A stretch of 64,000 bases of DNA from a virus (IMGVR_UViG_3300043425_000861); one strand, 5' to 3'. Shown: positions 2,684 through 46,055, counted from the stretch's first letter. The notes: generated by a model not told the origin, from the letters alone. Numbers and translations: made by a program.

Positions 2684-3145
2684 ATGAAAAAATTCAAAAC
2701 TCTCCACGGAACTCCAATTCCAGATGTTGTAGAATACATCAGAGAGTACATCTCAACGAGAGAGAATGTAGAAATTCTCATAGGTTCCGACTCACAAAGT
2801 TATTCCAATAGAAAAACAATTTATGGTGTGGTTGTGGCATTATATACAAAAGGAAAGGGCGCTCACGTTTTATGTACACGTGAAACATTACCTATGGAAT
2901 ATAACACAGCATCAAGATTGTTGGGTGAAGTGTGGAAATCGTTAGAGGTGGCAGAATTTTTGAAAGATAATGGTTTACCAAAACCTACTTGGATTGATAT
3001 TGATTTAAATCCTGACCCAAAATATAAATCAAATGCAACGCTTAGACAAGCTGTTGGTTTGGTTGAAGGTATGGGTTATAAAGTTAGATATAAACACGTA
3101 GGTGCGATGATGACTTACGCAGCAAATCACTTAGTTAGAATCTGA
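2684..3145 (+). CDS. RNase H-like YkuK (DUF458) family protein
   Basis: IGSDSQ, RLLGEVWKS, WIDIDLN and AANHL motifs typical of the family. Confidence 0.8.
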   Translation: MKKFKTLHGTPIPDVVEYIREYISTRENVEILIGSDSQSYSNRKTIYGVVVALYTKGKGAHVLCTRETLPMEYNTASRLLGEVWKSLEVAEFLKDNGLPKPTWIDIDLNPDPKYKSNATLRQAVGLVEGMGYKVRYKHVGAMMTYAANHLVRI

Positions 3146-3577
3146 CGATTCCTTAGGTCCGTATAAAATAAAATAACTTCCGGTTGGTACTTCAACAAGA
3201 GGACCAACCGGTAATTCAATTGTTGATAGAATTCTTCTGTATTTTGCGGTTTTGTTTCTATTCATAGAACCAACTCTTAAATCACCATATTCAATTGACC
3301 ATTGTCTTAGTTTATTGGACAATCTTTTCCAATTACGAGCAATGTCAATCATTTGGTGTCCGATGGCCCTATCTCTTTGAGCGTGTGGAGTCGTGAAATC
3401 TTCTTCGTCAGATGTTAAAGCAACATCATAAAGTGAATCATAGTGAAATGTTTGATTTTTTAGAAGAAACATTTTGTAAGGACCTGCATCTATTCTGTCG
3501 ATATCTTCCATACCCATTGAACGGAGTTTTCTCAACTCATCTTCAATCATTTCAAGAAGTATATCTGTAAAGTTCAT
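3131..3577 (-). CDS. hypothetical protein with MNFTDILLE leader
   Basis: 148-aa ORF; TATTTATA upstream on the coding strand. Confidence 0.75.
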   Translation of the reverse strand: MNFTDILLEMIEDELRKLRSMGMEDIDRIDAGPYKMFLLKNQTFHYDSLYDVALTSDEEDFTTPHAQRDRAIGHQMIDIARNWKRLSNKLRQWSIEYGDLRVGSMNRNKTAKYRRILSTIELPVGPLVEVPTGSYFILYGPKESSDSN

Positions 3578-3633
3578 TAAAGTATTTTTTTATAAATATT
3601 TGAAAATACCAATTTATTGTTTTATATTATACT

Positions 3634-3990
3634 ATGTTAAAACAACAGATATTATATCTTACATATTCAATACTTTTGTTCCTATTAGGTTCATTTGGTC
3701 ATTGGTATATAATGTATTGGCAATTTAGGTTACCTAATTGGGTTAAAACTCCTTGGCCATATCTAATATCAATTGTTTGTACCTTCATTTGGATAACAGC
3801 ATCTCATTATGGTGTGAAAGCATTTAATGGTGAAATGTGGAGTAATAGATTTTTGTTTTTTGTTACAGGTATCTTTGTGGCTGCGGTGTTATATCCATAT
3901 CACTTCGGTCAACCATTTACAATGAAAACTATGGTTCAGTTATTATTAGCAACTACCATTGTTTTAATATCACTTTTTTGGAAAAATTAA
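3634..3990 (+). CDS. small 4-TM membrane protein
   Basis: Four hydrophobic segments in 118 aa. Confidence 0.75.
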   Translation: MLKQQILYLTYSILLFLLGSFGHWYIMYWQFRLPNWVKTPWPYLISIVCTFIWITASHYGVKAFNGEMWSNRFLFFVTGIFVAAVLYPYHFGQPFTMKTMVQLLLATTIVLISLFWKN

Positions 3991-4001
3991 ATTTAGATAA
4001 T

Positions 4002-4235
4002 ATGAAATGCATTCAAGCAATTAAAGAAACAAAATCCTATAAGTTAGGTGAAATTCGTAGAACTGATGATATCGATGCAGACCAAAAGGTTGCAAGTGGT
4101 GTATGGAAGTTTATTCCTAAGTCAGAATGGAAGGGTGTTAAAAAAACACAATCGGTTGGTGTTCAACACGATATGGGAGGTTCTTACGAAGTTAAGACTG
4201 AAAATAAAAAAAATTCAAAAAAAGTTTCAAAATAA
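4002..4235 (+). CDS. hypothetical basic protein
   Basis: ORF from MKCIQAIK with a G-W-F-PKSEWK motif. Confidence 0.65.
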   Translation: MKCIQAIKETKSYKLGEIRRTDDIDADQKVASGVWKFIPKSEWKGVKKTQSVGVQHDMGGSYEVKTENKKNSKKVSK

Positions 4236-4236
4236 T

Positions 4237-4295
4237 TTGACTTTTAAAAAAAGTCATTGTATATTTGTAAAAGAAACAAGAAATAGTTCTTTGAT
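4237..4295 (+). promoter_or_regulatory. Bacteroidota-type promoter plus boxA-like antiterminator
   Basis: TTTG...TATATTTG (4237-4267), then GTTCTTTGA; a similar TATATTTG + GTTCTTTGACATATT precedes tRNA-Leu near 525-553. Confidence 0.6.
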
Positions 4296-11018: not shown

Positions 11019-12896
11019 TTATCTTTTTAACCAAACGTATTTGTCACCGTAACTTTTATCTAATTTTTGTTTGATTCTATCATAACCCAATCCTGATAAA
11101 GTAGTGTCTAATTTACCAACAGTTTCAGCATCTAAATCAGGACCTTTATATTTTACTCGATTTGTTGGTGGTAATACTGTACCATCTTCTAATCTTGTTT
11201 CATTTGCATCTCCTTTAAGATATCCAGCATCTTTAAGTGCGGTATATAAATCTACCGGTTGTTGATTAGACTGAATTATAGGAGCTATTTGAGGTAACTT
11301 CATATCAATAGCAGATGGTAATTTAATATCTCTTGTTGGTAATTTTATTGGTTCAGCATCTAATCTTTTTGTAGGTGCCGGATTAGAACCATTACAGTTA
11401 CTTGTTATTTTCAAATAAACATCTTTTGTTAATTTTGAACCATCATATCCCGCATCACTCAATGCTTTAGTTGTTATAGGTCCAAAATTACCTGTTTGAT
11501 ATTTTTGAGGTAAGCCTAAACATAATTGTACTTCTCTTACATAATCACTCTTACAACCTGGTGTTAAATCAAAATCAGCGCAAGGCTTATATGTTGACCT
11601 TGTTTTGGCTGGACCAGCATCATCTGTTTTTCTTGTATCGTCACCACCCGCAGCCTTTTCACCGTCCCAATCAATATGGATGTTAGAATATTTTTCATCT
11701 GTAGCCTGTTCGGCAATTGTAGCACTCACTTCTTCTGCACCACCACTAGTTCCTTTACAGTAGTAACTACCTCTTACTTGACCATCACCTGTAATTGCTC
11801 TATTATTTGGCCAAAAAGTTAATCCTTGGTGGTTTCTTGATTTTTCATCAACACCATCAGGTATTGTTGCAATTACAACATCACCTGTACCAATTCCGAA
11901 TTCTACATCAGGTAAATTAGCAACACAAGAAGGTAAAACACCATCAGCATTTTTTCCATCTTTACCGAACAAACCTTTAACAAGTTCATACGCACCATAA
12001 CCTGCAAGTCCATATAACAATGCCTGTTTAAGTGACATTCTACCTTTTAGACCTTTTATTTTATTCCATACGTTAGCACCATATTTTCCAATATTATAAC
12101 CCGCCTTCTCAACTGCAGTCATTGCTGCCGCTTCTCCTTTTACTACATCTTTTAATTTACCAACTTCTTTAAGTGGGGTATTAGTAGCAGCCGGAACACT
12201 TGTTCCTTTCATTTTTTTGTAATCTGCTAATCTTTGATTTAAATCTTTACCTGAGAAAGCACTGGTACCTGCATTTTTAGGAATACCCGGCATAGCTTTA
12301 GGAACACCTCCTGTTGGTATTTTATTACCTTTAACCGCACCTGCTGCAACATCATCCACGTTTTTCGATACACCAACGGCAATATCATCAGCCTGTTTAA
12401 CAATTCTATTAATTGTCGCTTCAGGATAACCCGCATTTTTTAATAACATCATACGGTCTGCTCTTGATGCTCCCTGAAATTGAGTAGCTAAACTACTTTT
12501 TGAACCCATTAACTCTTTTGTATAATTTTTAATCGCGTCATCAAATAAACCTGGATTAGTTTTAACAAACTTGGTGTCTTTTAAAATACCTTTACTAAAG
12601 TTACCAAGTTCTCCTGACAACGCTTTTCCTTCTCTTGCTCTCTTTAAAAACGCTACAGCATCATCTGCAGAACCTTTAAACATTGGGAGTCCCTTAATTT
12701 CACCACCTAAAAGTTTTATTGCGTCATCACTAAAATTTCTCAATAAAGCTTTAAGTTGCTCATCTAACGATTCTTGGTTTTCATAAATCATACCATCATC
12801 AACTAAATCATTGTTCTCAACAATAACATTAGTATCTTTAATACCCATAAGGACTTTAACCCTATCTACTTGTTCATTAAGTTCTATCTTTTTCAT
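11019..12896 (-). CDS. large putative virion protein with leader, TM helix and peptidoglycan-binding-like domain
   Basis: LNEQVDRVKVLMG leader; VREVQLCLG...GNFGPITTKAL resembles PG_binding_1; C-terminal domain shared with 41845-42645. Confidence 0.7.
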   Translation of the reverse strand: MKKIELNEQVDRVKVLMGIKDTNVIVENNDLVDDGMIYENQESLDEQLKALLRNFSDDAIKLLGGEIKGLPMFKGSADDAVAFLKRAREGKALSGELGNFSKGILKDTKFVKTNPGLFDDAIKNYTKELMGSKSSLATQFQGASRADRMMLLKNAGYPEATINRIVKQADDIAVGVSKNVDDVAAGAVKGNKIPTGGVPKAMPGIPKNAGTSAFSGKDLNQRLADYKKMKGTSVPAATNTPLKEVGKLKDVVKGEAAAMTAVEKAGYNIGKYGANVWNKIKGLKGRMSLKQALLYGLAGYGAYELVKGLFGKDGKNADGVLPSCVANLPDVEFGIGTGDVVIATIPDGVDEKSRNHQGLTFWPNNRAITGDGQVRGSYYCKGTSGGAEEVSATIAEQATDEKYSNIHIDWDGEKAAGGDDTRKTDDAGPAKTRSTYKPCADFDLTPGCKSDYVREVQLCLGLPQKYQTGNFGPITTKALSDAGYDGSKLTKDVYLKITSNCNGSNPAPTKRLDAEPIKLPTRDIKLPSAIDMKLPQIAPIIQSNQQPVDLYTALKDAGYLKGDANETRLEDGTVLPPTNRVKYKGPDLDAETVGKLDTTLSGLGYDRIKQKLDKSYGDKYVWLKR

Positions 12897-14225: not shown

Positions 14226-14480
14226 TTATTTCAATTTATTTGCCTTTCCTCTTTCCTTAATTCTGTCCTCCATTGGTGTATTGTCAATCTTGTTTGCAGG
14301 TCCTCGAGTAACTCCACTTTCCCAAACACCTACCTCAGGGTATCCTTGACCACCACTTTGTGTGGATGAAGTACCTGATTCAGGTTGTGCTGCTGCTGGG
14401 TCATCCTGTTCGTCAATCTCTTGATTATCAGTACTTTTAAACAACCCTTTTAGTTGTTTTTCACTTATTAATATCTTCAT
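14226..14480 (-). CDS. small protein with ISEKQL leader
   Basis: Starts MKILISEKQLKGLF; C-terminal WESGVTRGPAN motif. Confidence 0.7.
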   Translation of the reverse strand: MKILISEKQLKGLFKSTDNQEIDEQDDPAAAQPESGTSSTQSGGQGYPEVGVWESGVTRGPANKIDNTPMEDRIKERGKANKLK

Positions 14481-15836: not shown

Positions 15837-16577
15837 TTATGCCATATTTGAATGGACTTTTGTTGGATTCATAGCCAAACCACCAGTATTCAATACTTCA
15901 TAATGTAAATGTGGTCCTGTAGAATTACCAGCATATTTCGCACCTGCTTGACCACCTGAATAACCAATTAATTGACCTTTCTTAACCTCATCTCCTTTTT
16001 TAACTACCCATTGAGTTAAATGACAGAACTTTGTCATCAATCCTACATTCGTATGATTTAATTTAACAAATCCACCACAACCATTTGGAGTAGTATCGCC
16101 AGCAAACATCACCACCGCATCTTGAGGTGCATATACTGCAGTACCAACAGGTGCTCCAATATCCACACCTTTATGATTTTTGGATGTATTACCCCCAATA
16201 TTTCTCATACCAAAACTACTGGTCACTTTGTATGAAGGTCCCAATGGGTGCATAAGTTCTAAACCTGGAGGTATATTTGCGGCAAATTCTCCCGCACCAC
16301 CTCTATTGGTTTCGGTACCACCTGACACACTATTTTGAGTATTACCTGACGTTTTTGAAAATAAAGACGTTGCCAAATCTACCATCATATTAGTGTAACT
16401 ATCAACAGTACCCTGTAAACCACTTCCCGAACTTTTTGACGTTTCAGTACTGCCGGTTGTTGATGTTTGAGTATTACCGGTTGTTGATGTTTGAGTACTA
16501 CCTGTTTTTGGAGTTTCTTGTTCCTCTAATCTCCACATTAGATTTTTAACTTGGTTTTCTGTTAATTGAAGTTTCAT
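15837..16577 (-). CDS. M23 family peptidase with LTENQV leader
   Basis: HKGVD and STGPHLHYE motifs; Thr/Ser linker with TTGxTQTS repeats. Confidence 0.9.
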   Translation of the reverse strand: MKLQLTENQVKNLMWRLEEQETPKTGSTQTSTTGNTQTSTTGSTETSKSSGSGLQGTVDSYTNMMVDLATSLFSKTSGNTQNSVSGGTETNRGGAGEFAANIPPGLELMHPLGPSYKVTSSFGMRNIGGNTSKNHKGVDIGAPVGTAVYAPQDAVVMFAGDTTPNGCGGFVKLNHTNVGLMTKFCHLTQWVVKKGDEVKKGQLIGYSGGQAGAKYAGNSTGPHLHYEVLNTGGLAMNPTKVHSNMA

Positions 16578-16624
16578 ACAAATATAAATATACAATTTAC
16601 TCTAAATTTACAATACTTAATAAT

Positions 16625-17250: not shown

Positions 17251-17397
17251 ATGTGTATATTCAATATGAAAGAAGACGAAAGAAAAAAAATTTCGGAACA
17301 ACACAAAAAGTTAGAAAAGGAAGCTAAAGAAAGAAAAGAAGAACTTAAAAAAGGATTGAAAGCTCCTGAAAAAAAAGAAGATAAAAAAACCTCCTAA
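17251..17397 (+). CDS. small charged protein (not in ORF track)
   Basis: MCIFNMKEDERKKISEQHKKL..., similar to the N-terminus of 44819-45247. Confidence 0.55.
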   Translation: MCIFNMKEDERKKISEQHKKLEKEAKERKEELKKGLKAPEKKEDKKTS

Positions 17398-22684: not shown

Positions 22685-23035
22685 ATGAAAACTACATACC
22701 AACCTGCAGTAATTCAACAAACTGAAAATGTTATTAATGGATTAATCGACGCAGAATTTTTTGATGATTACGAAATAACTGATTTAACATACGCAAGACA
22801 ATACCTAAATGAGTTTTTTACACGAAAATTCATTGAAGGTAAAATAGAAGATGATATTGAGGAGATATTCTCAGAACAAGAATTTGAAGTTATTCTAAGA
22901 GAGATTGCAGCAGGTACCGTACTTCACGAATTGAAAGAAAAGGGACTTGTTGATTCGTATGAAGATGAGAATACTGAAGAAATGTTTTTTTTGACCGAAG
23001 AAGGTAAAAAATTCGTTAAAAAGACTGACGATTAG
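22685..23035 (+). CDS. hypothetical protein (winged-helix-like C-terminus)
   Basis: L.EKGLV...F-LTEEGK. Confidence 0.7.
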   Translation: MKTTYQPAVIQQTENVINGLIDAEFFDDYEITDLTYARQYLNEFFTRKFIEGKIEDDIEEIFSEQEFEVILREIAAGTVLHELKEKGLVDSYEDENTEEMFFLTEEGKKFVKKTDD

Positions 23036-27882: not shown

Positions 27883-28110
27883 ATGAAAAAATACGTATTC
27901 ACAGAATCACAACTCAAAAAAATAATCGATAATCAAGTATCTGAATCTGAAGAAAAAAAAGAATTTCGTCCAGGTGTTAATTTAGGAAAATACAACCTTA
28001 AATCATTTTTAAAGGATAAGGACGACGATGGTGATGACGAAAAAGATAAAGACGAAAAGAAACCATTCTCAACAAACCGGTTGAAGTCTGAGAAGAAAAA
28101 AGAAGACTAA
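27883..28110 (+). CDS. small protein with FTESQL leader
   Basis: MKKYVFTESQLKKII. Confidence 0.7.
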   Translation: MKKYVFTESQLKKIIDNQVSESEEKKEFRPGVNLGKYNLKSFLKDKDDDGDDEKDKDEKKPFSTNRLKSEKKKED

Positions 28111-31837: not shown

Positions 31838-32353
31838 ATGAGAAGATTATACTTTTTAGTCTGTATCCCGTTATTTTTTGGGTTTATAGAACCAAAATAT
31901 AAAGATAATTCTGTTTTATTCAACTTTGAAAGGATATTAAATCAGTATCGCATTGAGAATGGTAAGTCTCCTCTTGTTGTTGATACGATTCTTAAAAAAT
32001 TTACTGAAGAACGATGTAAGTATATCTCGGAAGTTGAGTATAGTCATAATGGGTTTGAAAAGATAAAACATCTCCCTTTCGGATTTACTATTGCGGGTGA
32101 AAATATTACGGAAGCCGTCATACCTTTAGATAAGAAACCTTATTATTCTTCTAACATTAAAGAACTTGCGGATATAATGAATAAAATGGCAATGAGTACA
32201 TCGAATTACGATATTGCAATGTATTGTTTTTTGAAGTGGAAATATTCACCTTCACACAATAATTTACTACTCAATCCACAAACTAAAAGGTTCTACTTAT
32301 CATATGATAAAAGTAGAACCCGTTATTATTTTAATTATGTTTCTTTAGATTAA
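31838..32353 (+). CDS. CAP/SCP-domain exported protein
   Basis: LNQYR..NG, SH, GENI, W-x-x-SPSH-x-x-x-LL. Confidence 0.8.
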   Translation: MRRLYFLVCIPLFFGFIEPKYKDNSVLFNFERILNQYRIENGKSPLVVDTILKKFTEERCKYISEVEYSHNGFEKIKHLPFGFTIAGENITEAVIPLDKKPYYSSNIKELADIMNKMAMSTSNYDIAMYCFLKWKYSPSHNNLLLNPQTKRFYLSYDKSRTRYYFNYVSLD

Positions 32354-33567
32354 GGTTTTCTTGGACAAGGAACACCCTTACCTCTTTTACCAAATAACCC
32401 AAGTCTTAAATTCGGTAATGTAATTCTGATATTAAGATTTGGTCTAAATTTAAAAATGTTTCTACCTGTTGCGGTAAATCTAACAATAAAGTCAGTCCTT
32501 TCAACAGGTGCAAATTGAGGTGGAATCGGGTCAATTTTAACGGTTTGTGATTGTGGCGGAGTTTTACCCTTAACAGCAAATTCAACCACAAATTCAACTC
32601 TCTGATTTTTAATTAAATCTTCTTTATTCTGTCCCACATATGCAGGTCCGCTAGTCCCTGTAGCATCAAGTTCAACCATCTTATCACCATTTTTTAGTGT
32701 CATTGTTTGTCCTGCGTTGGTTCCATCGCTATTAATTACAACACCACTTGGATTAATTTCAGCCTTTCTTTTTGCAAGTTCTTTTGTTATATAATCATAA
32801 ACAACTCTTGCTCTTGCCTCTGACAATTCTTTAAATGTTGGTACTTTACCGGGGAATGTTCTCTTACTAACACCATTTGGTATTGTGGAAGATGAAGAAG
32901 TTATTTGTAATTTATTGATATATAAATTTGCTGCGGTTCTACCCTTTTTCTCTAAATTTGATGTCATATTTTGAATACCTTCATCAATCGCTGCCAATAA
33001 ATTTTCATTAATATAGTTCACAAAATCAGGAGTCATAATTGCCTCATTATATGCAAACTGCATTGGTTGTTGTACTTTTGGGGGTGAAAATATTTCGTAC
33101 CCTTCCTCAACAACAGGAACCTCAATCTCACCACCAGGTTTACCTGGGTCAATCATTTCTTGTTTAATTGTTACCTGATTATCTACAACGATTTTCTTAT
33201 TTTTTACTTGACCACCCAAAGTTCCTCTCTGATATGATGAAACAATATAATAATAAAAATTAGGGTTTAATTGTTTCATAGTATCAAATATCTGAGCAGA
33301 AGATTCATCCATCAAACCTTTCATTTGTGATATGGTTTTATCTAATTCAGGGTTAGGTAATGGTTGTTTGGTCTTCGGGTCCCAAGCAAGACCTACCGCA
33401 GTAAACATAGACTGTAATGTTCTATTTGCGAAGTTTTTAGCAATTTTAGGGTCTTTAGTTGAAAGAACGACATTAACATCGTCTTGTTTCTCAAACCCAA
33501 CTTGCTCCTCAATCATCTTGTCAACCACAAATTTGACTTGTTCTTCAGTTATAATAATTCTTCTCAT
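32350..33567 (-). CDS. leader-bearing protein with OmpA-C-like domain
   Basis: MRRIIITEEQV leader; LSEARARVVYDYI...NQRVEF resembles the OmpA/MotB PG-binding motif. Confidence 0.65.
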   Translation of the reverse strand: MRRIIITEEQVKFVVDKMIEEQVGFEKQDDVNVVLSTKDPKIAKNFANRTLQSMFTAVGLAWDPKTKQPLPNPELDKTISQMKGLMDESSAQIFDTMKQLNPNFYYYIVSSYQRGTLGGQVKNKKIVVDNQVTIKQEMIDPGKPGGEIEVPVVEEGYEIFSPPKVQQPMQFAYNEAIMTPDFVNYINENLLAAIDEGIQNMTSNLEKKGRTAANLYINKLQITSSSSTIPNGVSKRTFPGKVPTFKELSEARARVVYDYITKELAKRKAEINPSGVVINSDGTNAGQTMTLKNGDKMVELDATGTSGPAYVGQNKEDLIKNQRVEFVVEFAVKGKTPPQSQTVKIDPIPPQFAPVERTDFIVRFTATGRNIFKFRPNLNIRITLPNLRLGLFGKRGKGVPCPRKP

Positions 33568-33633: not shown

Positions 33634-34095
33634 ATGGGAAAAATAGTAATTTCAGAAAATCAATACAAAAATCTACAGAAAATGATAACTGAAGATGTTA
33701 ATAACAGATACGAAAGAGTCGTTAAAGTTAATGTTGGTATAGGTGGAAGTCCTCGTTATGAGAATATGACCCTTGAGGACATTACAACATACTATAATGA
33801 AATGAGATTAACCTATTTAATCGAACAAGAACATAGAAGTTGGGGTATCAAAAACATATCATTATATGATATTCAAGGTAATGACGAAATTGAAGTGGAA
33901 TTACATTTATATCCTGACAACTCAAATGAGCCCATCATTAAAGAGATTAAGATTCCGTTAGATTGGAGTAAATTAGAAACAAGTACTAATCAAGGTGAGG
34001 GTGTGGTAACTATTGGTGATAGATTAGATATTAGATTTTACCTTGTTGATGGAAAATTCGAATATGAAATGGAATTAGAAGTTTACAATTTGTAA
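33634..34095 (+). CDS. hypothetical protein with ISENQY leader
   Basis: MGKIVISENQYKNL; TATTTAT upstream. Confidence 0.75.
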   Translation: MGKIVISENQYKNLQKMITEDVNNRYERVVKVNVGIGGSPRYENMTLEDITTYYNEMRLTYLIEQEHRSWGIKNISLYDIQGNDEIEVELHLYPDNSNEPIIKEIKIPLDWSKLETSTNQGEGVVTIGDRLDIRFYLVDGKFEYEMELEVYNL

Positions 34096-35043: not shown

Positions 35044-35214
35044 TTATACTCCCTTTTCTTTTTTATTATCGTGTCCACATTTGTGACACAAATACATATC
35101 ATCACCACCTTCTGATTTCTTCCATTCCCATCCACATCCGTCACATATGACTTTATCGGAAGTTTCAGCTTCCAATATTTTTTTTAATTGTTCTTCTGTT
35201 ACTATTATTTTCAT
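35044..35214 (-). CDS. 56-aa zinc-ribbon protein with VTEEQL leader (not in ORF track)
   Basis: MKIIVTEEQLKKILEAETSDKVICDGCGWEW...LCHKCGHDN; TATTTAT upstream. Confidence 0.75.
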   Translation of the reverse strand: MKIIVTEEQLKKILEAETSDKVICDGCGWEWKKSEGGDDMYLCHKCGHDNKKEKGV

Positions 35215-35291
35215 AGTAATAAATACATTTTAATTTCCATTTTATTGTTTTTTTATGTATATTTTACATATGTCTTAAAAGAAAATAACTG

Positions 35292-36773: not shown

Positions 36774-38285
36774 ATGTTAAAAAGATTTAAAAGAATTTAC
36801 GTTACAGGTTGTTCATTAACCGCGGGAAGTGGTTTAGATTCAAATGATGTTAAACAAAGATATAAAGAACTTCACAACATCGAATATAATCACGAAAAGG
36901 AATTAACATATCCAAAATATTTGGGTGAATTTTTTGAATGTCCTGTTATTAACGATGCCAAATCAGGCACAGGTTCACCTCGTTTAATTAGGAGAGTATA
37001 CGAATACATAAAAGAAATTGGTTTTGACGAAGCTAAAAAAACTTTATTCTTTTTACAGATAAATAATGCCGCTCACAGAGCTGAAATGTATTATAAAAAA
37101 ATTGGTGATTACTTAGTTATAAATCCAAAATACGATTTAGAAACTGGTGAATTGAAAGGAGTTGACTCAACAGATAATTGGTCGGGGAGTGATAGAATGT
37201 ACGATGCTAGAGAATATTTTGAGGTAAACAAATATTTAAAAAATCATTTGGATACGTTTCACGACCCATTTGTGTATGAAGATAAAATTGGTGATGAGTT
37301 TTTAGGTTTAATTAGTTTTTTAGAAAGTTTAAATATTGAGTATTACTATATTTTAGAGTTTGATAGTATACAAGATAGATATCGAATGGAAGTGTATAAT
37401 AAACTAAATAAAAAAAGATTAATCTCACCTGCTGGTGAATGGGGTGTAAGTCCGTTTACCACAAATAGAAAATTAAATATTTGTGATGAGACTAATTTTG
37501 TTGTGACAGATTCACATCCAGGCATTTTGGGTCATAAAGCTTTAGGTGAAGAATTATGTAAAATATTAAAAGAAAAACTAACACAAAAGTTGTGGGTTTT
37601 CGGTGATTCATTTAGTACCGGTTTCGAAGACCTTTCAATGCAATATAAATCATTTGAAGATTATGTTAATTTAAAAGGATATGTACCAAGAAATTACATC
37701 GATATTGTTTCGGAAGATTTTGGTTATAAGGTAAAAAACTTTTCTAAACCAGGAGTTTCTAATTCGACCATATTAGGACAATTCATCAAAGTAATGAATG
37801 ATATTGAACCTGAAGATATCGTGATTATAAATTGGACTTCAGTTTTTAGATTTAGGGTATCAAAAGAAGATGGTACTTTTTGGGATGTTACTGACACCAA
37901 CAACATTGAAAATTTGAAAAATCCAATTTCTAAACAATCGTTAGATGAAATCAAATTAAATAGAAGTAATGCGTTTTATAAAGAAATGTTAGAATACATT
38001 ACATTGATTGATAAGATTTGTAAAAATAATTTAGTAATTCATTGGTGTTGGGATTTACCTTATAGTATAAATTCCGACACAACAATCAATATCTTGAAAA
38101 ATAAATTATTAAGTATTAAGGATTTTGAAACAATTCACGAAGAGACTCGAGGAGAAGTGATTGATTACCACTATTCAGAAAAGGGTCATTTGGAATTATC
38201 CGAATTTGTTAAGAAGGTTATTAAAAATAAATTTGACCACCCAAAGGAATCACTAATTGATAGGTTATTGAAAAAATTATTGTGA
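36774..38285 (+). CDS. tandem SGNH-like domain protein
   Basis: GCSLT...DSHPG..GH and FGDSFS...DYHYS..GH. Confidence 0.7.
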   Translation: MLKRFKRIYVTGCSLTAGSGLDSNDVKQRYKELHNIEYNHEKELTYPKYLGEFFECPVINDAKSGTGSPRLIRRVYEYIKEIGFDEAKKTLFFLQINNAAHRAEMYYKKIGDYLVINPKYDLETGELKGVDSTDNWSGSDRMYDAREYFEVNKYLKNHLDTFHDPFVYEDKIGDEFLGLISFLESLNIEYYYILEFDSIQDRYRMEVYNKLNKKRLISPAGEWGVSPFTTNRKLNICDETNFVVTDSHPGILGHKALGEELCKILKEKLTQKLWVFGDSFSTGFEDLSMQYKSFEDYVNLKGYVPRNYIDIVSEDFGYKVKNFSKPGVSNSTILGQFIKVMNDIEPEDIVIINWTSVFRFRVSKEDGTFWDVTDTNNIENLKNPISKQSLDEIKLNRSNAFYKEMLEYITLIDKICKNNLVIHWCWDLPYSINSDTTINILKNKLLSIKDFETIHEETRGEVIDYHYSEKGHLELSEFVKKVIKNKFDHPKESLIDRLLKKLL

Positions 38286-38873
38286 TTTTTTATTTCTAAT
38301 CATACTCCAAAGATTACCAGTGTCTTTAACATTTTTCTTCGCGTAAGTGAATAACATACTAGCATCAATAATCTCATCAATTCTATAATCTACTTTCATA
38401 GTATGACTCCTATTATAAAACATTGTTTTAACATTATTACCGTCAATAACTAAGTAAAAAATGTCTCCAACAGAGTTGGTTTCGTCATCTTTAATATATA
38501 AACGAGCATCTTCTTGGATAACCTCTTTAAGTGTTTGTAATTTAATATCAACATTAGGCCACATTACATTTTTATTCCCAACCCCGAGTAAATCAAATTT
38601 ATGGACGATAATCCCTAATCTCACATCAGAAGGTATAACATAATTCATTATCTCGTCTAATGTGTTAAATATTTTTTCACTTTCTTCATTTGTCACTTTA
38701 TATGTTGCAACCTGTTTCCCCCAATCATCCCCACCATTTTTTTTCCTAAGTATAACAGGAAAGTAAGTTTGTTTTACAAATCTAGCGATAATTCTTTTTA
38801 TCGTGTGTTCGGTGGCGTTTAATTCATTAATAGATTGACTATTAATAGATTCAAAAATTGGGGTTAGCTTCAT
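38277..38873 (-). CDS. hypothetical protein with MKLTPIFE leader
   Basis: 198-aa ORF. Confidence 0.75.
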   Translation of the reverse strand: MKLTPIFESINSQSINELNATEHTIKRIIARFVKQTYFPVILRKKNGGDDWGKQVATYKVTNEESEKIFNTLDEIMNYVIPSDVRLGIIVHKFDLLGVGNKNVMWPNVDIKLQTLKEVIQEDARLYIKDDETNSVGDIFYLVIDGNNVKTMFYNRSHTMKVDYRIDEIIDASMLFTYAKKNVKDTGNLWSMIRNKKSQ

Positions 38874-38877: not shown

Positions 38878-39882
38878 TTAAGTTGTTTTAGGTGCTGGTG
38901 TCGGTGCAGGAGTTGGAGCTGGAGTTGTTGTTGGTGCAGGTGTTACCCTTGACTTCTCAATTTCTTCTGCTCTTTTTAAAATATCATCCTCAGTTACGCC
39001 AGGAGGAAGTGGAGGTAATGTTGTAGTTGTCGACGCAGTTCCTTGTTTTGCTGCTTGTGCTGCTCTTGTTATTGGTCCCATAATTCCATCAACATCTGCT
39101 TCAGTGAATTTTCTTCCGTTAACTACCGTACCCACCAATGTTTTTTGTAATTCTTGAACCTTAGGGTCGGGTTGTCTTCTTTGTCTTTGTTGTGTATTGG
39201 TTTGTCCACCAACTCCTATTGAGGCTTTTGCTTGGTCTATTTCCGCTTGAGTTACTCCAAATTTAGAAATATAATCGGACAAAGGTGTATTATTATATTG
39301 ACTTCCTGGATTTTTAATTATACCTTGAGCATCAACAGTTTTTAATATGTTAGTAATATTTTGAATTCTACTATTTCCAGCCGCGGGTGTTGGTGCTGGT
39401 TGTGATTGATTTAGTTGATTTGCTTTATTAATCTCATCTTGAGTTACCCCAAATTTAGAAATATAATCGGACCAAGGTGTGTTGTTAAATTGGGATTTTG
39501 GGTTTACAATCATACCATCGGCATTTACCATTCTTGATATGTTTGCAATTTGTTGTATTCTACTTTGTTGTTGAGTTGCTTCGGTGTTTTGTTTTGTTGT
39601 AAGTTCCTTTGCTTTTTTAATATCATCTTGAGTAATATTAAATTTAGCAATATAGTCTGCCCATCTTGTATTATTATATTGAGATTTTGGGTTTTTAATA
39701 ATACCCTGAGCATCAACAGTTTTTTGTATATTCGCAATGTTTTGTAATCTTTTTTGTTGTTCATCATTTGCAGCCTGTGTCGCATATTGACCGGCGTACA
39801 TACCATACATCTGCTCTTTTATAACGTTATCGACAATTTTTTTAATGTCAGTTTCTTTTAGTTTTACTACTTTATTAGCCAT
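38878..39882 (-). CDS. leader-bearing protein with three ~60-aa repeats and PG-binding-like domain
   Basis: RxQxIxNI..VxAxGxIxNPxSQxNNT..DYIxKFxxTQ three times; VQELQ...VDGIMGPITRAA. Confidence 0.8.
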   Translation of the reverse strand: MANKVVKLKETDIKKIVDNVIKEQMYGMYAGQYATQAANDEQQKRLQNIANIQKTVDAQGIIKNPKSQYNNTRWADYIAKFNITQDDIKKAKELTTKQNTEATQQQSRIQQIANISRMVNADGMIVNPKSQFNNTPWSDYISKFGVTQDEINKANQLNQSQPAPTPAAGNSRIQNITNILKTVDAQGIIKNPGSQYNNTPLSDYISKFGVTQAEIDQAKASIGVGGQTNTQQRQRRQPDPKVQELQKTLVGTVVNGRKFTEADVDGIMGPITRAAQAAKQGTASTTTTLPPLPPGVTEDDILKRAEEIEKSRVTPAPTTTPAPTPAPTPAPKTT

Positions 39883-39891: not shown

Positions 39892-40224
39892 TTATTTATG
39901 TTTAATTATTAATTCCCCCAAAACTTCTATAAGGCCCACTAATTTTTGAAATTCAACTTGGTTCATATTACTCCCCAAATCACATAACTTATCTAAGTGT
40001 TCTTTATATTCTTTTTTAGCATCATCCAAATCAAAATTACCTTCGGATGCTTTTTTGTAATATGGTAATTTAACAACAAAGTGGTGATAGGTTAACATTG
40101 CTGGTCCACCCTTCTCTTTTGCATTCTCCACAATTTTAGTAGCACCACCCAATCTCTTTTCCGCAAATTCACAGAACTTATTTTTTTTCTCTTCCGATTC
40201 GGATATTAATTCTAATAGTTTCAT
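39892..40224 (-). CDS. hypothetical protein with MKLLELISE leader
   Basis: 110-aa ORF. Confidence 0.7.
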   Translation of the reverse strand: MKLLELISESEEKKNKFCEFAEKRLGGATKIVENAKEKGGPAMLTYHHFVVKLPYYKKASEGNFDLDDAKKEYKEHLDKLCDLGSNMNQVEFQKLVGLIEVLGELIIKHK

Positions 40225-40228: not shown

Positions 40229-40489
40229 TTATTTTTCGGTACTAAATGTTGAACCATATAAGAAGGGTAACTCTTCCTTCATTCTGGCCAATATTTCAAA
40301 CATTGGTCTTACTAAAGGTTGGTACTCTTCGTCTTTTATAAATCCAAGGTCTCTGAATTCCTTTAATCTGTGAAATAATCTCACATACTCATCATAATGA
40401 CGTTCACTGAATTTTTCAGGTTCCTCTTCCTTTTTATCAAAGTATTCAAATACTTTATCTAATTGTTCTTCGGTTAGTGCTAATTTCAT
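40229..40489 (-). CDS. hypothetical protein with LTEEQL leader
   Basis: TATTTATA directly upstream. Confidence 0.7.
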   Translation of the reverse strand: MKLALTEEQLDKVFEYFDKKEEEPEKFSERHYDEYVRLFHRLKEFRDLGFIKDEEYQPLVRPMFEILARMKEELPFLYGSTFSTEK

Positions 40490-40503
40490 AATATATAAAT
40501 ACT

Positions 40504-41844: not shown

Positions 41845-42645
41845 TTATGCCGCTAAGTCAGATGGTAACGCGTTTCCACCTTTAACCCATACATATTTTT
41901 GACCATATCTTTTATCTGGTACTTGTGAGAATCTTCCACCATATCCATTGTCAACAAGATGCTTAGTTAATGTTCCTAATTGTTCTTGAGATAATGGGGC
42001 TCCTTTATAAACAATTCTTCTATTTTCATAACCGTTCATATCAGTAAGTCCATTAATTAAACCTTTTTGCATTAATAGATTGTGTATTTCTTGTCCTGAC
42101 ATTTGTTTAGTTGCCGGTTGTCCTGATACACCAGGCGCTGTAGGGGTTGTAACAGATGGAAGAGGTGGTTTTTGTGCGGCACCAATTGCAGCGTCTGGAC
42201 CTGTTTGTCCCGTCACTGTTACGGTTGGTAATTCAATTCCTTGTGCTGCAGGTGTTGTTGGTCCACTTCCCACTTTACTAATTGTGGTTCCTGACACACT
42301 AGGTGCTGCCGCCACTGTATTAGCATTGTTAATCGCTGTAGATGGTGAAGTGTTTTTTGGTGCAGTTATTGCCGGTGCAGGACCTCTTTTAGCAGTTACC
42401 GTTACAGGGGGTAAATCAGTTACTTTAATTGTTCCGTCAGGATTTAGAAAGTTACCTGCATTCCTAACTTTTCTAATTTCTATCGCTCTTTTTAAAATTT
42501 CATCATCGGTCATACCACCTGGATTTTTTGATGTTCCCGCTGCTGGTGTTCCTGCTGGGTCTGGTGCTTCAGACATAATTTGTGATGAGACCATTCTCTT
42601 AACCATTTTTTCAAGTTGCTCTTCAGTTAATACTATTTTTGCCAT
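41845..42645 (-). CDS. leader-bearing Pro/Thr/Ala-rich protein
   Basis: MAKIVLTEEQLEKMV; C-terminal domain shared with 11019-12896. Confidence 0.8.
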   Translation of the reverse strand: MAKIVLTEEQLEKMVKRMVSSQIMSEAPDPAGTPAAGTSKNPGGMTDDEILKRAIEIRKVRNAGNFLNPDGTIKVTDLPPVTVTAKRGPAPAITAPKNTSPSTAINNANTVAAAPSVSGTTISKVGSGPTTPAAQGIELPTVTVTGQTGPDAAIGAAQKPPLPSVTTPTAPGVSGQPATKQMSGQEIHNLLMQKGLINGLTDMNGYENRRIVYKGAPLSQEQLGTLTKHLVDNGYGGRFSQVPDKRYGQKYVWVKGGNALPSDLAA

Positions 42646-43522: not shown

Positions 43523-44080
43523 CTATTTTTCAATATGGTGTCCACCACCATCCAATTTGTTTGTGAAACCCATTAGTTTATCAAATGATTTATGTGTCTG
43601 AATAGGTTCTTTCTTTGTGTCTCTCATAACGTCCCAAGTACGAGGTTTAACTTTCATATGATTACTCACCAAGTATTTTATCTCGTCAATATCCGTCCCT
43701 TCAAAAGTTAGAATCCAATCTTTAAAATATTCAACATAGTCTGTCGATTTAAATTCGTGTCCGTGAGCGGTAGGGTGTCCTGTCTTAGGGTTAATGTCAT
43801 ATGTGTCCATCTTACCCAAATCGTGAAATAGAGCAGCCATAATCATATTAGGGTCGTCAGGGTAATGGTGATACGCTCTTTTCAACACGACTATCATATG
43901 TTTTAGAGTGTTACCCTCAGGATGCCATTCAGGGTTCTGTTTTGCACTCCATTGTTTAAAAAACAATTTTTTTAATTCATTGGGTAGATTCTTAATCAAT
44001 AACTGAGGGGTTGCAGGAATGATATCTTCGATAAGATGTATCATAGATTTAATTCTTGTAATTTGTTCCTGTAAATTCAT
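43523..44080 (-). CDS. HD-domain phosphohydrolase (CCA-adding-enzyme HD-like) with LQEQI leader
   Basis: Q-x-x-x-WHPEG..H, AALFHDLGK, GHE..S, LV-x-x-HM. Confidence 0.8.
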   Translation of the reverse strand: MNLQEQITRIKSMIHLIEDIIPATPQLLIKNLPNELKKLFFKQWSAKQNPEWHPEGNTLKHMIVVLKRAYHHYPDDPNMIMAALFHDLGKMDTYDINPKTGHPTAHGHEFKSTDYVEYFKDWILTFEGTDIDEIKYLVSNHMKVKPRTWDVMRDTKKEPIQTHKSFDKLMGFTNKLDGGGHHIEK

Positions 44081-44148
44081 ATCATATAAATACAACAAAA
44101 AACCCTCTCGTGTGAGAGGGTCTTATAAAAATACAGTTTAAAAAATTA

Positions 44149-44817
44149 TTACATTCCTTGGTTTTCGGAACTATTCTTTGCACCTTTTAAAATATAAAGT
44201 TTGGACTCATCTGAAAGGTGATTATTATTCATTATTAATCTCTTAATATCTTCCACACTATATTCTCCCTTTAATAACATATTCAATGCCACTTGCATAA
44301 CCAAAGAGTCTTTTCTATCCTGACTTATGTCAAATTCTTGATACGATTCCTTTTCATCATCTGTATGAACACCTTCTGAAAAATCATCCTTCCAATTCTG
44401 AGATTTCATCACATCATCTTTTACCTTACCATATTCAGAATCTCTGACACCTTTCTTCCAACTCGGTTCCATATCTCCACCCAAAGTATTTGCGGTATCG
44501 TATTGATGTTTTAAACTCTTTAATTTGTCTTTTTTGTTACCATCAACATATGAATCAACCATCTGTTTAAGTTCAAAAAAAGAAAGTTTGTTAATATCTC
44601 TTTTATCAACAGGAAAATTATTTTTAATCTCATCAAATCTCATAACATAAGCCTCGACTTCAGATGCGGCTTGTTGTTTAAATTTATCAACAACCTTGTT
44701 AAAAAAACCTTCAGAGTATTCATTTAAATCGTCCTCTTTCTCATAGTGCCCTTCATCGACACTTTTAATCATCCCTTTAATGCGGGATACTTGTTCTCCC
44801 AATGTTTGCTTTTTCAT
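44149..44817 (-). CDS. hypothetical protein with LGEQVSRIK leader
   Basis: 222-aa ORF. Confidence 0.75.
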   Translation of the reverse strand: MKKQTLGEQVSRIKGMIKSVDEGHYEKEDDLNEYSEGFFNKVVDKFKQQAASEVEAYVMRFDEIKNNFPVDKRDINKLSFFELKQMVDSYVDGNKKDKLKSLKHQYDTANTLGGDMEPSWKKGVRDSEYGKVKDDVMKSQNWKDDFSEGVHTDDEKESYQEFDISQDRKDSLVMQVALNMLLKGEYSVEDIKRLIMNNNHLSDESKLYILKGAKNSSENQGM

Positions 44818-44818
44818 A

Positions 44819-45247
44819 TTATCTTAATGATTCTGAGTTGTTATATTTTTTAATTAGTTCTGCGTGTTTGAACGCCTTTTGAATTCCCATCGGGAACATA
44901 TCACCACCTGAAACGGGAATCCAATCTTTTTGAAAGAATTGAACGGTTAAATCTGATTCGGTCTTTTTATCAGGACTTCCAAAAACGGGACCACGATATA
45001 ATATCTTTGCCTTATCACCCATAATAACGATGTTAACAGCATACACATTATCGGGACCTGAAAAACCTTCAATAACCGAACCGTTATCGAGGGTCTTTTC
45101 AAATTTCTTTTGAAAACCGAAGTGATTGATTATTTCTTCTTTTGATACCTCCTCATTTAATAGAGATGGTTTTTTATAACCAAACGAGGAGTGTTGTTCC
45201 ATAATCTGTCCTCTTTCCTCATCAGTTAAATTAAAGTTCTTATACAT
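44819..45247 (-). CDS. hypothetical protein with LTDEER leader
   Basis: TATTTATA upstream. Confidence 0.75.
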   Translation of the reverse strand: MYKNFNLTDEERGQIMEQHSSFGYKKPSLLNEEVSKEEIINHFGFQKKFEKTLDNGSVIEGFSGPDNVYAVNIVIMGDKAKILYRGPVFGSPDKKTESDLTVQFFQKDWIPVSGGDMFPMGIQKAFKHAELIKKYNNSESLR

Positions 45248-45287
45248 AGTCCTAATCTTATTTATATAAATATAAAAGTTTCCTTAA

Positions 45288-46055
45288 TTATCTATCGTTA
45301 GACACAAATGAATCAAACTCATAGTCTTTATCGTACTCAACAAATTGATTCATCCGTTTTTTAATGTCTTCAATATTTCGTTTTAGATTTTCAATTTTCT
45401 CCTCTTTATCCTCACCCTGATAGTTTGGCATATGATTATCCAAAAAATTTTTAAAAATATTTAAATCTTTTCTTAAATTATTAAATCTATCGTCGGGGTT
45501 TAAGATGGTTTCACCTGAACCCATTTCTTTTAAACGAACAACACCATCGGGTCTCCATATACAACCTGAACTAATGTCCCAAGTATATAACCAATAGTAT
45601 TTCTCATAGTTCTCATCTCGGAATAAACTTCTAAAACCCAATTCACTATATACAGGAATTTCAATACCTGAGTATTTTTCCGCAACCCTATTCCATTTGG
45701 GATAGTATTCTCTAATACCATTTATCTTAGGACTTTCCACAAACTCATCACAGAACGCATCTAACTTTTCTTTACTGTTAATGGAATAAACTTTGGATGG
45801 GTCCACATATACCTTATAGGTATGTGCAAGTCTTTCAGCAAAACTCTTCATCTCAGTTTTAACGAAGTATATCCATTCGTCACCGAAACCGTACCAAAAC
45901 CCTGTGGGTTTTGCCAACATACCTCGTCTATCATATGGGTCAGCCTGAACTCTATCAGTGGTGTCTCTAATCCCTGTAACGGGTTCTTTGGATATGTGTA
46001 TACGTTCTTTACTACCTACACTTAGTATCTCATTTAATATGGGTTGTAATTTCAT
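45288..46055 (-). CDS. hypothetical protein with MKLQPILNE leader
   Basis: KPTGFWY..W, W-x-x-V-x-x-x-Y-x-GIE, WD-x-x-SGCIW; TATTTATA upstream. Confidence 0.75.
   Translation of the reverse strand: MKLQPILNEILSVGSKERIHISKEPVTGIRDTTDRVQADPYDRRGMLAKPTGFWYGFGDEWIYFVKTEMKSFAERLAHTYKVYVDPSKVYSINSKEKLDAFCDEFVESPKINGIREYYPKWNRVAEKYSGIEIPVYSELGFRSLFRDENYEKYYWLYTWDISSGCIWRPDGVVRLKEMGSGETILNPDDRFNNLRKDLNIFKNFLDNHMPNYQGEDKEEKIENLKRNIEDIKKRMNQFVEYDKDYEFDSFVSNDR

What the first reader, a model, noticed from the sequence alone, without database searches (positions are those of the whole stretch)
3131..46055. About 20 unrelated proteins share a Glu-containing N-terminal leader: candidate capsid-targeting/propeptide system
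Seen, four classes. A (hxhTE-x-Qh-K): 14480, 16577, 27883, 33567, 33634, 35214, 40489, 42645, with variants at 23361 and 39882. B (L-x-EQh-x-RhK-x-h): 12896, 44080, 44817. C (M-x-h-x-x-hh-x-E): 3577, 29159, 38873, 40224, 46055. D (FN-h-x-x-x-ER..I-x-EQH): 45247, 17251. The cargoes differ completely (M23 peptidase, HD hydrolase, zinc ribbon, OmpA-like, PG-binding), and most follow TATTTATA. Established: T4 internal proteins carry short N-terminal capsid-targeting sequences removed by the prohead protease after (I/L)-x-E. Inference: a modular tag that loads diverse effectors into the head for ejection into the host.
Basis: partly seen in the sequence, partly recalled or inferred. Interest (0 to 1): 0.8.

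Follow-up and report, generated by a model that had tools for sequence, protein, structure and literature searches.

The report
Swappable leader tags on jumbo-phage late proteins
In this piece of an uncultured T4-related giant lake phage, 13-15 unrelated late proteins start with one of three interchangeable 20-30-residue tags ending in the motif cut by the phage's head protease; they are probably "load into the capsid, then clip" labels, though neither loading nor clipping has been measured.

Summary
Class profiles separate 13-15 genes from 1,099 candidate starts by a wide score gap.

The tag is a short strand plus an N-capped amphipathic helix ending in hydrophobic-hydrophobic-x-Glu, usually followed by Gln. 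Conservation collapses just after that point. Selection acts on the protein, not the DNA.

One cargo family carries a class A tag in some phages and a class D tag in others, joined exactly at Glu|Gln.

Relatives encode a T4 gp21-type protease. Their capsid protein has L-I-N-E|A at the position of T4's maturation cut, the same four-residue type that ends the tag.

Tagged genes are late: 15 of 59 genes in the late block, 0 of 39 in the early block.

A profile of the tag finds 1,356 protein clusters worldwide, nearly all matching at residue 1.

Still unproven: packaging, cleavage and ejection. The tag also occurs inside some proteins, and a similar N-terminus is an integral part of one small domain family.

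This is a new variant of the T4 capsid-targeting sequence. The scan has noted similar tags on other jumbo-phage DNA.

The parts
32350..33567 (-). 405-aa cargo with class A leader (residues 1-21, junction I-E-E|Q); body weakly OmpA/MotB-like
   Evidence: HMM 41 bits. Orthologues carry class D leaders joined at the same E|Q. AF2: residues 1-28 have pLDDT below 40 and form a free helix, while the body is folded. Foldseek E 3e-3 to OmpA-like domains.
38878..39882 (-). 334-aa protein with the canonical long class A leader (Lys in place of Thr; junction V-I-K-E|Q), then three internal ~70-aa repeats
   Evidence: HMM 26 bits. Same form as the global consensus. Repeats seen directly in the sequence.
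15837..16577 (-). 246-aa protein: class A leader (junction L-E-E|Q), Thr/Ser/Gly-rich linker, M23 peptidase domain
   Evidence: Pfam PF01551 E 5e-25 at residues 134-238. HMM 29 bits. Promoter box 5 nt upstream.
14226..14480 (-). 84-aa protein with class A leader (junction I-D-E|Q) and an acidic Pro/Ser/Gly-rich continuation
41845..42645 (-). 266-aa protein: class A leader (junction M-S-E|A), long Pro/Thr/Ala-rich linker, C-terminal ~45-aa module shared with 11019-12896
   Evidence: HMM 29 bits. Shared module at 48% identity.
33634..34095 (+). 153-aa protein with class A leader (junction I-T-E|D)
   Evidence: HMM 35 bits. Promoter box 3 nt upstream.
35044..35214 (-). 56-aa protein: class A leader plus a small Cys4 zinc-ribbon-like body
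   Evidence: HMM 30 bits. Pfam DZR match is weak, E 0.004.
27883..28110 (+). 75-aa protein with class A leader (junction V-S-E|S) and a charged tail; second gene of an operon
   Evidence: HMM 17 bits. Matches the loose regex.
40229..40489 (-). 86-aa protein with a class A-like N-terminus and no clear junction; ambiguous between a tag and part of a small domain
   Evidence: HMM 26 bits. Aligns only weakly (17% identity) with the ~100-aa domain family in which this N-terminus is packed into the fold.
23032..23361 (-). 109-aa protein, weak class A variant (junction L-N-E|Q); the start at 23361 is favoured by a promoter box 5 nt upstream
   Evidence: HMM only 10 bits. Promoter box. Weak DUF6674 match.
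11019..12896 (-). 625-aa protein with class B leader (junction I-V-E|N)
   Evidence: HMM 43 bits. Strict regex match. No Pfam or PHROG family.
43523..44080 (-). 185-aa HD-domain protein with class B leader (junction L-I-E|D)
   Evidence: Pfam PF01966 E 2e-6. HMM 37 bits. Promoter box 4 nt upstream.
44149..44817 (-). 222-aa protein with class B leader (junction V-D-E|G)
   Evidence: HMM 44 bits
44819..45247 (-). 142-aa protein with class D leader (about 32 residues, junction L-N-E|E)
   Evidence: HMM 66 bits. Same class in G1, G2 and G10.
17251..17397 (+). 48-codon ORF with a class D-like start; doubtful as a gene
   Evidence: HMM 44 bits, but the ORF is short and Lys/Glu-rich, and it has no promoter box.
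45288..46055 (-). Class C example: 255-aa late protein whose N-terminus is NOT a portable leader
   Evidence: 17 homologues keep the first ~30 residues as one conserved block, with no swap.
29159..30859 (+). Class C example (566 aa); has M-E|Q at residues 12-13 and an acidic Pro-rich continuation; unresolved
3131..3577 (-). Class C example (148 aa); unresolved, no evidence of a shared tag
38277..38873 (-). Class C example (198 aa); unresolved
39892..40224 (-).
16583..16590 (-). Late-promoter-like box TATTTATA, 5 nt before the ATG of the M23 gene. Boxes of the same kind lie at 14485-14492, 23367-23374, 33584-33591, 35218-35225, 40494-40501, 44085-44092 and 45265-45272 (all - strand) and at 33623-33630 (+ strand).
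   Evidence: In relative G2 the same box precedes the portal, scaffold-like and adaptor-like genes.

Best explanation
The class A, B and D N-termini are portable address tags of a T4-related jumbo phage.

Proposed mechanism:
1. Each tag is a short hydrophobic strand followed by an N-capped amphipathic helix. Inferred: it docks a late protein onto the assembling prohead core or the inner shell.
2. The tag ends in hydrophobic-hydrophobic-x-Glu. Inferred: the gp21-type head protease cuts there, and possibly also after the first Thr/Ser-Glu. That frees the body inside the head.
3. Further inference, by analogy with T4: the body leaves with the DNA at infection.

Shown here:
- the tag exists;
- it is position-specific and selected at protein level;
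- it is exchangeable exactly at the Glu junction;
- it sits on late genes;
- it co-occurs with a T4-type protease whose inferred capsid site has the same four-residue form.

Not shown: binding, packaging, cleavage, ejection.
For: 1. Position specificity. All strict regex matches in six frames are N-terminal. There is a wide HMM score gap among 1,099 candidate starts.

2. Protein-level selection. Ser is encoded by both TCA and AGT, Leu by four codons and Arg by three. 27% of identical residues use different codons.

3. Shared ending. [ILVM]-x-E-Q occurs at residues 11-36 in 15 of 32 leader proteins, against 14 of 380 other N-termini (Fisher p 2.5e-11) and 1.8% of internal windows. In the global set the junction Glu lies 14 residues after the Thr in 120 of 139 hits, and conservation collapses right after it.

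4. Modularity. The 405-aa cargo has class A leaders in about 28 homologue clusters and class D leaders in about 30. Only Glu-Gln is invariant across the join. P0046 and P0050 have near-identical bodies directly after different leaders.

5. Detachability. In the AF2 model the leader has pLDDT about 35 and forms a free helix, and the body folds from residue ~29.

6. Protease link.
- Peptidase_S77 is found in G2 (E 3e-23).
- It is found in 10 of 13 large leader-bearing contigs, and in 5 of 6 that are at least 90% complete.
- T4 gp23's cut (Glu65|Ala66; 65-residue propeptide, PMC9958956) aligns with L-I-N-E|A of the relatives' capsid protein.
- The proteases carry [VI]-[IL]-K-E|[ASN] near residue 37.
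- This four-residue type occurs once per 1,123 residues in the G10 proteome.

7. Late class.
- The promoter box is upstream of 7 of 14 leader genes against 14 of 110 others in the window (p 0.002).
- In G2 the figures are 10 of 15 against 35 of 185 (p 2e-4), and there the box also precedes head genes.
- 15 of 59 late-block genes carry a leader, against 0 of 39 early-block genes (p 3e-4).

8. Precedent. T4's 10-20-residue CTS propeptides load internal proteins, Alt and foreign proteins, and are removed by gp21. Multiple cuts inside a propeptide are usual (PMC5694885, PMC9958956).
Against: - There is no virion proteome or N-terminal data for any phage that carries these tags.
- The window holds no head or protease gene, and its whole genome was not available, so the protease link rests on relatives with 46-65% identical orthologues.
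- Co-occurrence with S77 is lineage-bound, not independent.
- The residue after the junction is mostly Gln in tags but Ala or Ser in the capsid protein.
- The helix module also occurs inside or at the C-terminus of some proteins (44 copies among the top hits).
- A similar N-terminus is a confidently packed part of a ~100-aa domain family.
- Several cargoes look envelope-directed (M23 peptidase, OmpA-like), which is unusual for T4-type head cargo.
- The tags share no sequence similarity with the T4 CTS beyond the ending.
Confidence: 0.6

Rival explanations
1. The tag is an uncleaved docking or oligomerisation helix. It attaches diverse late proteins to some shared hub of the particle (tail lumen, baseplate, neck, capsid surface) or to each other, and it stays on the mature protein.
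For: - Internal, tandem and C-terminal copies of the helix occur in some proteins, which suits a reusable binding module.
- Envelope-type cargoes (M23 peptidase, OmpA-like) with long Pro/Thr/Ser linkers resemble tail-associated or surface-displayed proteins.
- Leader genes flank a tape-measure-like gene in the window (12908-14185), and one leader gene sits beside large late genes in G2.
- The Thr-Glu-x-Asp/Gln-Leu core is a generic helix N-cap with hydrophobic staple, so its conservation needs no protease (inference from established helix-capping rules).
Against: - Conservation ends sharply at hydrophobic-x-Glu in three otherwise different classes, and recombination joins fall exactly there.
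- That ending equals the inferred capsid and protease maturation sites.
- A docking helix would not need a shared Glu ending across classes.
Confidence: 0.2
2. The shared N-terminus serves a non-virion role common to late proteins. Examples would be recognition by a phage chaperone or modifier, a stability or turnover signal, or simply the first strand and helix of small globular domains that were fused to other bodies.
For: - In the ~100-aa family the same kind of N-terminus is modelled at pLDDT 82-96 as part of the fold.
- The window's 40489 protein lacks a junction.
- Promoter boxes 3-5 nt from the ATG suggest leaderless messages, whose first codons may be constrained.
Against: - In the 405-aa cargo the leader does not pack on the body.
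- Two unrelated leader classes replace each other on one body.
- Codon-level variation argues against an RNA-level constraint beyond the first few codons.
- No modifier or chaperone candidate was identified.
Confidence: 0.12
3. The tag is an export leader of the double-glycine / Nif11 (bacteriocin or RiPP) type. A peptidase-containing transporter would remove it while secreting the cargo.
For: The pattern Leu-Ser/Thr-x-x-Glu/Asp/Gln-Leu-x-x-Ile/Val resembles the helix of double-glycine leaders (from my own knowledge of that consensus, not a tool result). The only literature hits for the string LTEEQL are papers on RiPP leaders.
Against: - There is no Gly-Gly or Gly-Ala ending.
- Cargoes reach 625 residues.
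- No Nif11 or other leader family was hit in Pfam.
- No transporter or modification gene was seen among the annotated neighbours.
Confidence: 0.03

Closest known systems
Capsid targeting sequence (CTS) of phage T4 internal proteins IPI-III and Alt, removed by the prohead protease gp21 (Mullaney and Black 1996, as reviewed in PMC9958956 and PMC5694885)
   Same: - An N-terminal tag that is portable onto unrelated proteins.
- It ends in hydrophobic-x-Glu.
- The lineage has gp21-type protease, gp23-type capsid and gp20-type portal genes.
- The tagged genes are late and lie outside the head gene cluster.
   Different: - The tags are 20-32 residues long, against about 10 in T4.
- At least three unrelated tag classes coexist in one genome and replace each other on the same body.
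- Conserved features are an N-cap box and a Gln after the junction.
- A genome carries 13-20 or more tagged genes, and 1,356 clusters match worldwide.
- There is no sequence similarity to the T4 CTS.
- Function is untested.
Propeptides of head and ejection proteins of giant phages phiKZ, 201phi2-1 and SPN3US, cut by gp21-like proteases at (S/A/G)-x-E (PMC5694885, PMC10052503)
   Same: - A jumbo phage in which many head proteins are processed at x-Glu.
- SPN3US paralogues gp53 and gp54 have identical N-termini.
- Multiple cuts within a propeptide occur.
   Different: Those propeptides are mostly over 100 residues long, are not a shared consensus tag on unrelated proteins, and use a small residue at P3 rather than a hydrophobic one.
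Cargo-loading peptides of encapsulins
   Same: It works in a similar way: a short portable peptide that addresses unrelated cargo to the inside of an HK97-fold shell.
   Different: Those peptides are usually C-terminal, are not cleaved and belong to a different shell family. No homology is claimed, and this comparison comes from my own knowledge, not from a test here.
Double-glycine / Nif11-type leader peptides
   Same: A short N-terminal capped helix with a similar hydrophobic spacing.
   Different: No Gly-Gly site, large folded cargoes, no transporter, and a phage late-gene context.

Membership tests
T4-type capsid-targeting / propeptide system | Tag sits at the extreme N-terminus of the precursor | tested here: met
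   All strict matches are 2-5 residues from the start. 123 of the top 150 global hits start at residue 5 or earlier. Some proteins carry extra internal copies.
T4-type capsid-targeting / propeptide system | Tag ends in the prohead protease motif (Leu/Ile-x-Glu in T4) | tested here: met
   31 of 32 leader proteins have [ILVM]-x-E at residues 11-36, and 15 of 32 have Gln next, against 14 of 380 other N-termini. The junction Glu is at a fixed position in 120 of 139 global hits.
T4-type capsid-targeting / propeptide system | Genome encodes a gp21-type (Peptidase_S77) prohead protease | tested here: inconclusive
   Met in relatives: G2 and 10 of 13 large tag-bearing contigs. The window has no such gene, and its whole genome was not held.
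T4-type capsid-targeting / propeptide system | Tag is portable between unrelated proteins | tested here: met
   Bodies are unrelated by BLASTP. Class A and D leaders are exchanged on one body family at the Glu|Gln join.
T4-type capsid-targeting / propeptide system | Tagged proteins are found inside the head | not testable with these tools
   No cultured phage with class A tags was found in 50,697 phage records at the sensitivity of a 26-residue tblastn. No proteome is available.
T4-type capsid-targeting / propeptide system | Tag is removed from the mature protein | not testable with these tools
   There is only indirect support, from the match to the inferred capsid and protease sites.
T4-type capsid-targeting / propeptide system | Sequence similarity to the T4 CTS itself | tested here: not met
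   Classes A, B and D share only the ending with it. Class C, which looks most like it, did not behave as a portable tag.
Sec/Tat signal peptide | Hydrophobic core of 10 or more residues after a basic N-region | tested here: not met
   Seen directly: the tags are charged and amphipathic, with net charge -1 to +2 and no hydrophobic run.
Double-glycine / Nif11 leader peptides | Gly-Gly (or Gly-Ala) cleavage site and a cognate peptidase-transporter | tested here: not met
   No Gly-Gly at the junction. No such Pfam family on the tagged proteins or their neighbours.
Integral N-terminal helix of a globular domain | N-terminus packs on the body with high model confidence | tested here: not met
   Not met for the 405-aa cargo (pLDDT about 35). 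Met for the separate ~100-aa family of the relatives (pLDDT 82-96), which is therefore excluded from the tag set.

The most novel reading that the evidence does not exclude
These lake phages of the T4 superfamily run a multi-tag addressing system. At least three interchangeable leader classes, present on more than a thousand protein families, define a sequence-predictable set of head-packaged and injected proteins that includes cell-wall enzymes. The different classes would send cargo to different places in the core, or into a different order of ejection.
Probability: 0.3. Interest if true: 0.75.

Novelty: new variant of a known kind. Interest (0 to 1): 0.55.

Why it matters
- If the tags do load the head, the injected protein set of a large, uncultured phage clade could be read straight from sequence. 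That set would include hundreds of families with no known function and likely counter-defence or host-takeover proteins.
- The tags would be ready-made handles for packaging foreign proteins into phage heads.
- Exact tag swapping at the protease site also shows how such cargo repertoires evolve.
- The principle has been known from T4 since 1996, so this extends a known mechanism rather than revealing a new one.

Tried and rejected
- No whole genome is held for the window.
- blastn and tblastn of window genes found nothing in the 50,697 phage records.
- A 26-residue class A leader gave no tblastn match there at E up to 10.
- The class-B-like leader of phage immuto matches only immuto isolates.
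- Pfam and PHROGs have no family covering the leader.
- A literature search for the motif strings gave only unrelated RiPP papers. Other searches found no description of this tag.
- Cluster look-ups gave only 'hypothetical protein' and no organism names.
- A profile search of the immuto record through the genome search returned nothing. I replaced it with a direct scan of the fetched genome.
- Foldseek found no fold for the ~100-aa control family.
- Class C was rejected as a portable tag.
- A DNA- or RNA-level repeat was rejected on codon variation.
- A signal peptide and a double-glycine leader were rejected on anatomy.
- The 20 residues after the junction are only modestly more acidic and polar than the rest of the protein, so I put no weight on that.

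Full report
**What the window is**

The window is AT-rich (31-36% GC). It carries 15 tRNA genes, a tmRNA gene and a GOLLD RNA gene.
- The block from 8.3 to 46.5 kb holds mixed-strand genes. They include glycosyltransferases, a GMP-reductase-like enzyme, an endolysin-like protein and a non-specific nuclease.
- From 46.6 kb onward lies a plus-strand block of small genes that is almost free of the GC dinucleotide and of alanine.
- No whole genome is held.
- Relatives were found in IMG/VR with the 405-aa protein of 32350-33567. L001 is syntenic, with mostly 95-100% identical proteins. G1 and G2 have about 46% identical orthologues.
- G2 is about 46% complete at 142 kb. It encodes a large terminase, a gp20-type portal, a gp21-type protease and a gp23-type capsid protein.
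- The nearest cultured relatives of that capsid protein are Flavobacterium phage vB_FspM_immuto, a Microcystis phage, Rhodothermus RM378 and T4-like phages.
- The window therefore belongs to an uncultured T4-superfamily jumbo phage of about 290-330 kb (contig sizes).

Classes A, B and D are real.
- A six-frame regex scan found 7 strict class A matches and 3 class B matches. Every one lies 2-5 residues after an initiator Met.
- Class profiles were built from the window, its relatives and database homologues, then run over all 1,099 candidate starts of the window. They separate nine class A starts (17-41 bits), three class B starts (37-44 bits) and two class D starts (44-66 bits) from a background below about 10 bits. 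The starts at 23361 and 46641 fall in between. The profiles include the window's own sequences, so the absolute scores are partly circular, but the gap is clear.
- The bodies are unrelated by BLASTP, apart from one shared C-terminal module.

Class C is not supported.
- Its pattern is only weakly enriched: 4 of 124 N-termini against 0.5% of internal Met positions, and 1 of 200 in G2.
- Homologues of the 46055 protein conserve the first ~30 residues as one block, with no leader exchange.

**Anatomy of the tag**

- The global consensus (printed) runs as follows: Met, two basic residues, two or three hydrophobic residues, a basic residue and Leu; then a Thr-Glu-x-Asp/Gln-Leu box; then an amphipathic basic helix ending in Val-Ile-Lys/Asn-Glu, usually followed by Gln.
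- The Thr-Glu-x-Asp/Gln-Leu box, with a hydrophobic residue before it, has the form of a helix N-capping box with a hydrophobic staple. This is an inference from established capping rules.
- The junction Glu lies 14 residues after the Thr in 120 of 139 hits. Conservation collapses immediately afterwards.
- The window mostly uses a shorter form, with Gln in the box. The start at 39882 carries the long form.
- Classes B and D have different helices but end the same way.
- [ILVM]-x-E-Q occurs at residues 11-36 in 15 of 32 leader proteins, against 14 of 380 other N-termini and 1.8% of internal windows.
- Codon usage shows selection on the protein. Ser is encoded from two codon families, Leu by four codons and Arg by three.

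**Modularity**

- The 405-aa protein has a class A leader in the window and in L001, but a class D leader in G1 and G2. In the alignment, only the Glu-Gln pair is invariant in the leader region.
- Of the 60 database homologue clusters, about 28 carry class A and about 30 carry class D.
- P0046 and P0049 (class A) and P0050 and P0053 (class D) have nearly the same body directly after the junction.
- Leaders have therefore been exchanged by recombination exactly at the Glu|Gln join, and the two classes are functionally equivalent for this cargo.
- AlphaFold2 with a 32-sequence alignment models residues 1-28 at pLDDT below 40, as a free helix. The body is folded from about residue 29. Its C-terminal half is weakly OmpA/MotB-like.

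**Link to the head protease**

- T4 gp23 loses a 65-residue propeptide (PMC9958956).
- In an alignment with the G2 capsid protein, T4's Glu65|Ala66 falls on L-I-N-E|A, and both residues are invariant. G10 has L-I-N-E|S at the same place.
- Eleven protease homologues share a conserved [VI]-[IL]-K-E|[ASN]-type site near residue 37.
- The commonest leader endings are V-I-K-E and V-I-N-E. This four-residue type occurs once per 1,123 residues in the G10 proteome.
- 10 of 13 large tag-bearing contigs encode Peptidase_S77, as do 5 of the 6 that are at least 90% complete. These contigs are one clade, so this is consistency rather than independent proof.

**Expression class**

- The box TATTTAT[AT] lies at two preferred distances from start codons, 3-5 nt and 13-18 nt.
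- In G2 it precedes the portal gene, the scaffold-like genes and a head-tail-adaptor-like gene, so it behaves as the late promoter.
- It is enriched before leader genes: 7 of 14 against 14 of 110 in the window, and 10 of 15 against 35 of 185 in G2. Most leader genes without a box are downstream genes of operons.
- 15 of 59 genes in the 8.3-46.6 kb block carry a leader, against 0 of 39 genes in the early block.
- None of the sugar or nucleotide enzymes carries a leader.

**Breadth**

- A 30-column profile of class A leaders found 1,356 representative clusters at E of 0.001 or better among 1.84 billion proteins.
- Of the top 150 hits, 123 match from residue 5 or earlier, and 8 more within 35 residues. 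Lengths run from about 30 to over 500 residues.
- The complete relative G10 (293,850 bp, about 400 genes) has at least 20 leader proteins: 10 class A, 7 class D and 3 class B. They cluster near the genome ends, far from the head module at 63-71 kb.
- No Pfam or PHROG family covers the tag, and no paper in the searchable library describes it.

**Complications**

1. Some database proteins carry a second copy of the helix, either inside the chain, in tandem, or at the C-terminus. Relatives have two long ORFs with internal copies. This fits polyprotein-like cargo cut at each junction, but it fits a reusable docking helix equally well.
2. A ~100-aa paralogue family in the relatives starts with a class-A-like N-terminus that AlphaFold2 packs into a compact domain (pLDDT 82-96, pTM 0.79). 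The N-terminal motif alone is therefore not proof of a detachable tag. The window's 40489 protein is ambiguous for this reason.
3. The residue after the cut is mostly Gln in tags, but Ala or Ser in the capsid protein.
4. Several cargoes are envelope-type proteins.
5. Nothing has been measured.

**Comparison and verdict**

- In every feature I could test, the system works like the T4 CTS and its gp21 processing.
- It differs in tag length, in having several coexisting and interchangeable classes, and in scale.
- Membership in the strict sense (proteins in the head, tag removed) cannot be tested with these tools.
- Earlier reports of this scan describe similar leader tags in other T4-related jumbo phages. 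They include a 23-residue helix on over a thousand families in marine phages and three interchangeable tags in a Bacteroidota phage. The scan has thus found this kind of thing before on other DNA. Those notes are not independent evidence.
- I rate the finding as a new variant of a known kind. The capsid-loading reading has about 0.6 probability.

Noticed in passing
window 4700-5107 (+): Full-length GOLLD RNA (RF02032, 311 bits) between the tRNA array and a metallophosphoesterase gene. A tmRNA lies at 7953-8343 and 15 tRNA genes at 39-2643.
   Followed up: partly
window, e.g. 16583-16590, 33623-33630, 35218-35225, 40494-40501, 44085-44092, 46060-46067: Many late-promoter-like TATTTAT[AT] boxes end only 3-5 nt before the ATG. 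The messages would then be leaderless or nearly so. A second set sits 13-18 nt away. The same two spacings occur in G2.
   Followed up: partly
window 11019-12896 (residues 579-624) and 41845-42645 (residues 210-255): Two leader proteins of different classes (B and A) share a C-terminal ~45-residue module at 48% identity. No other copy was found in the window, G1, G2 or G10.
   Followed up: partly
window 38878-39882 (-): The body of this leader protein holds three ~70-residue repeats and ends in a Pro/Thr/Ala-rich tail. No curated family matches it.
   Followed up: no
L010:19713-20000 and L011:1-2166 (G2 119713-122166, - strand); also G1 76772-78208 (L016:16772-18208, - strand): These are long ORFs of 817 and 478 aa with a complete leader-like segment in the middle (near residues 380 and 229). 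They may be polyprotein-like cargo, gene fusions or miscalled genes.
   Followed up: no
L011:4872-5502, L011:18451-19083, L012:1118-1420 (G2): A family of ~100-aa paralogues has a class-A-like N-terminus that is part of a confidently modelled alpha/beta domain with no match in the PDB. It could be the evolutionary source of the class A helix, or a decoy for motif scans.
   Followed up: partly
window 46405-58825: The early-looking plus-strand block has 24 GC dinucleotides against 346 CG in 12.4 kb, and 0.6% alanine.
   Followed up: partly
window 17694-22579 (-) and 5991-7538 (+): A cluster of sugar-modifying genes: a flavin-dependent mutase-like N-terminus at 17694-18797 and several glycosyltransferase-like ORFs. 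Orthologues of 5991-7538 and 21326-22579 occur in G2 and G10.
   Followed up: no
L166:5061-5456 and L170:11675-12139 (Flavobacterium phage immuto, NC_055915 25061-25456 and 111675-112139): Two proteins of a cultured phage share a 22-residue class-B-like leader ending I-I-T-E|S, followed by unrelated bodies. This phage's capsid protein has I-V-S-E|A at the T4-homologous site. It may be a testable model.
   Followed up: partly
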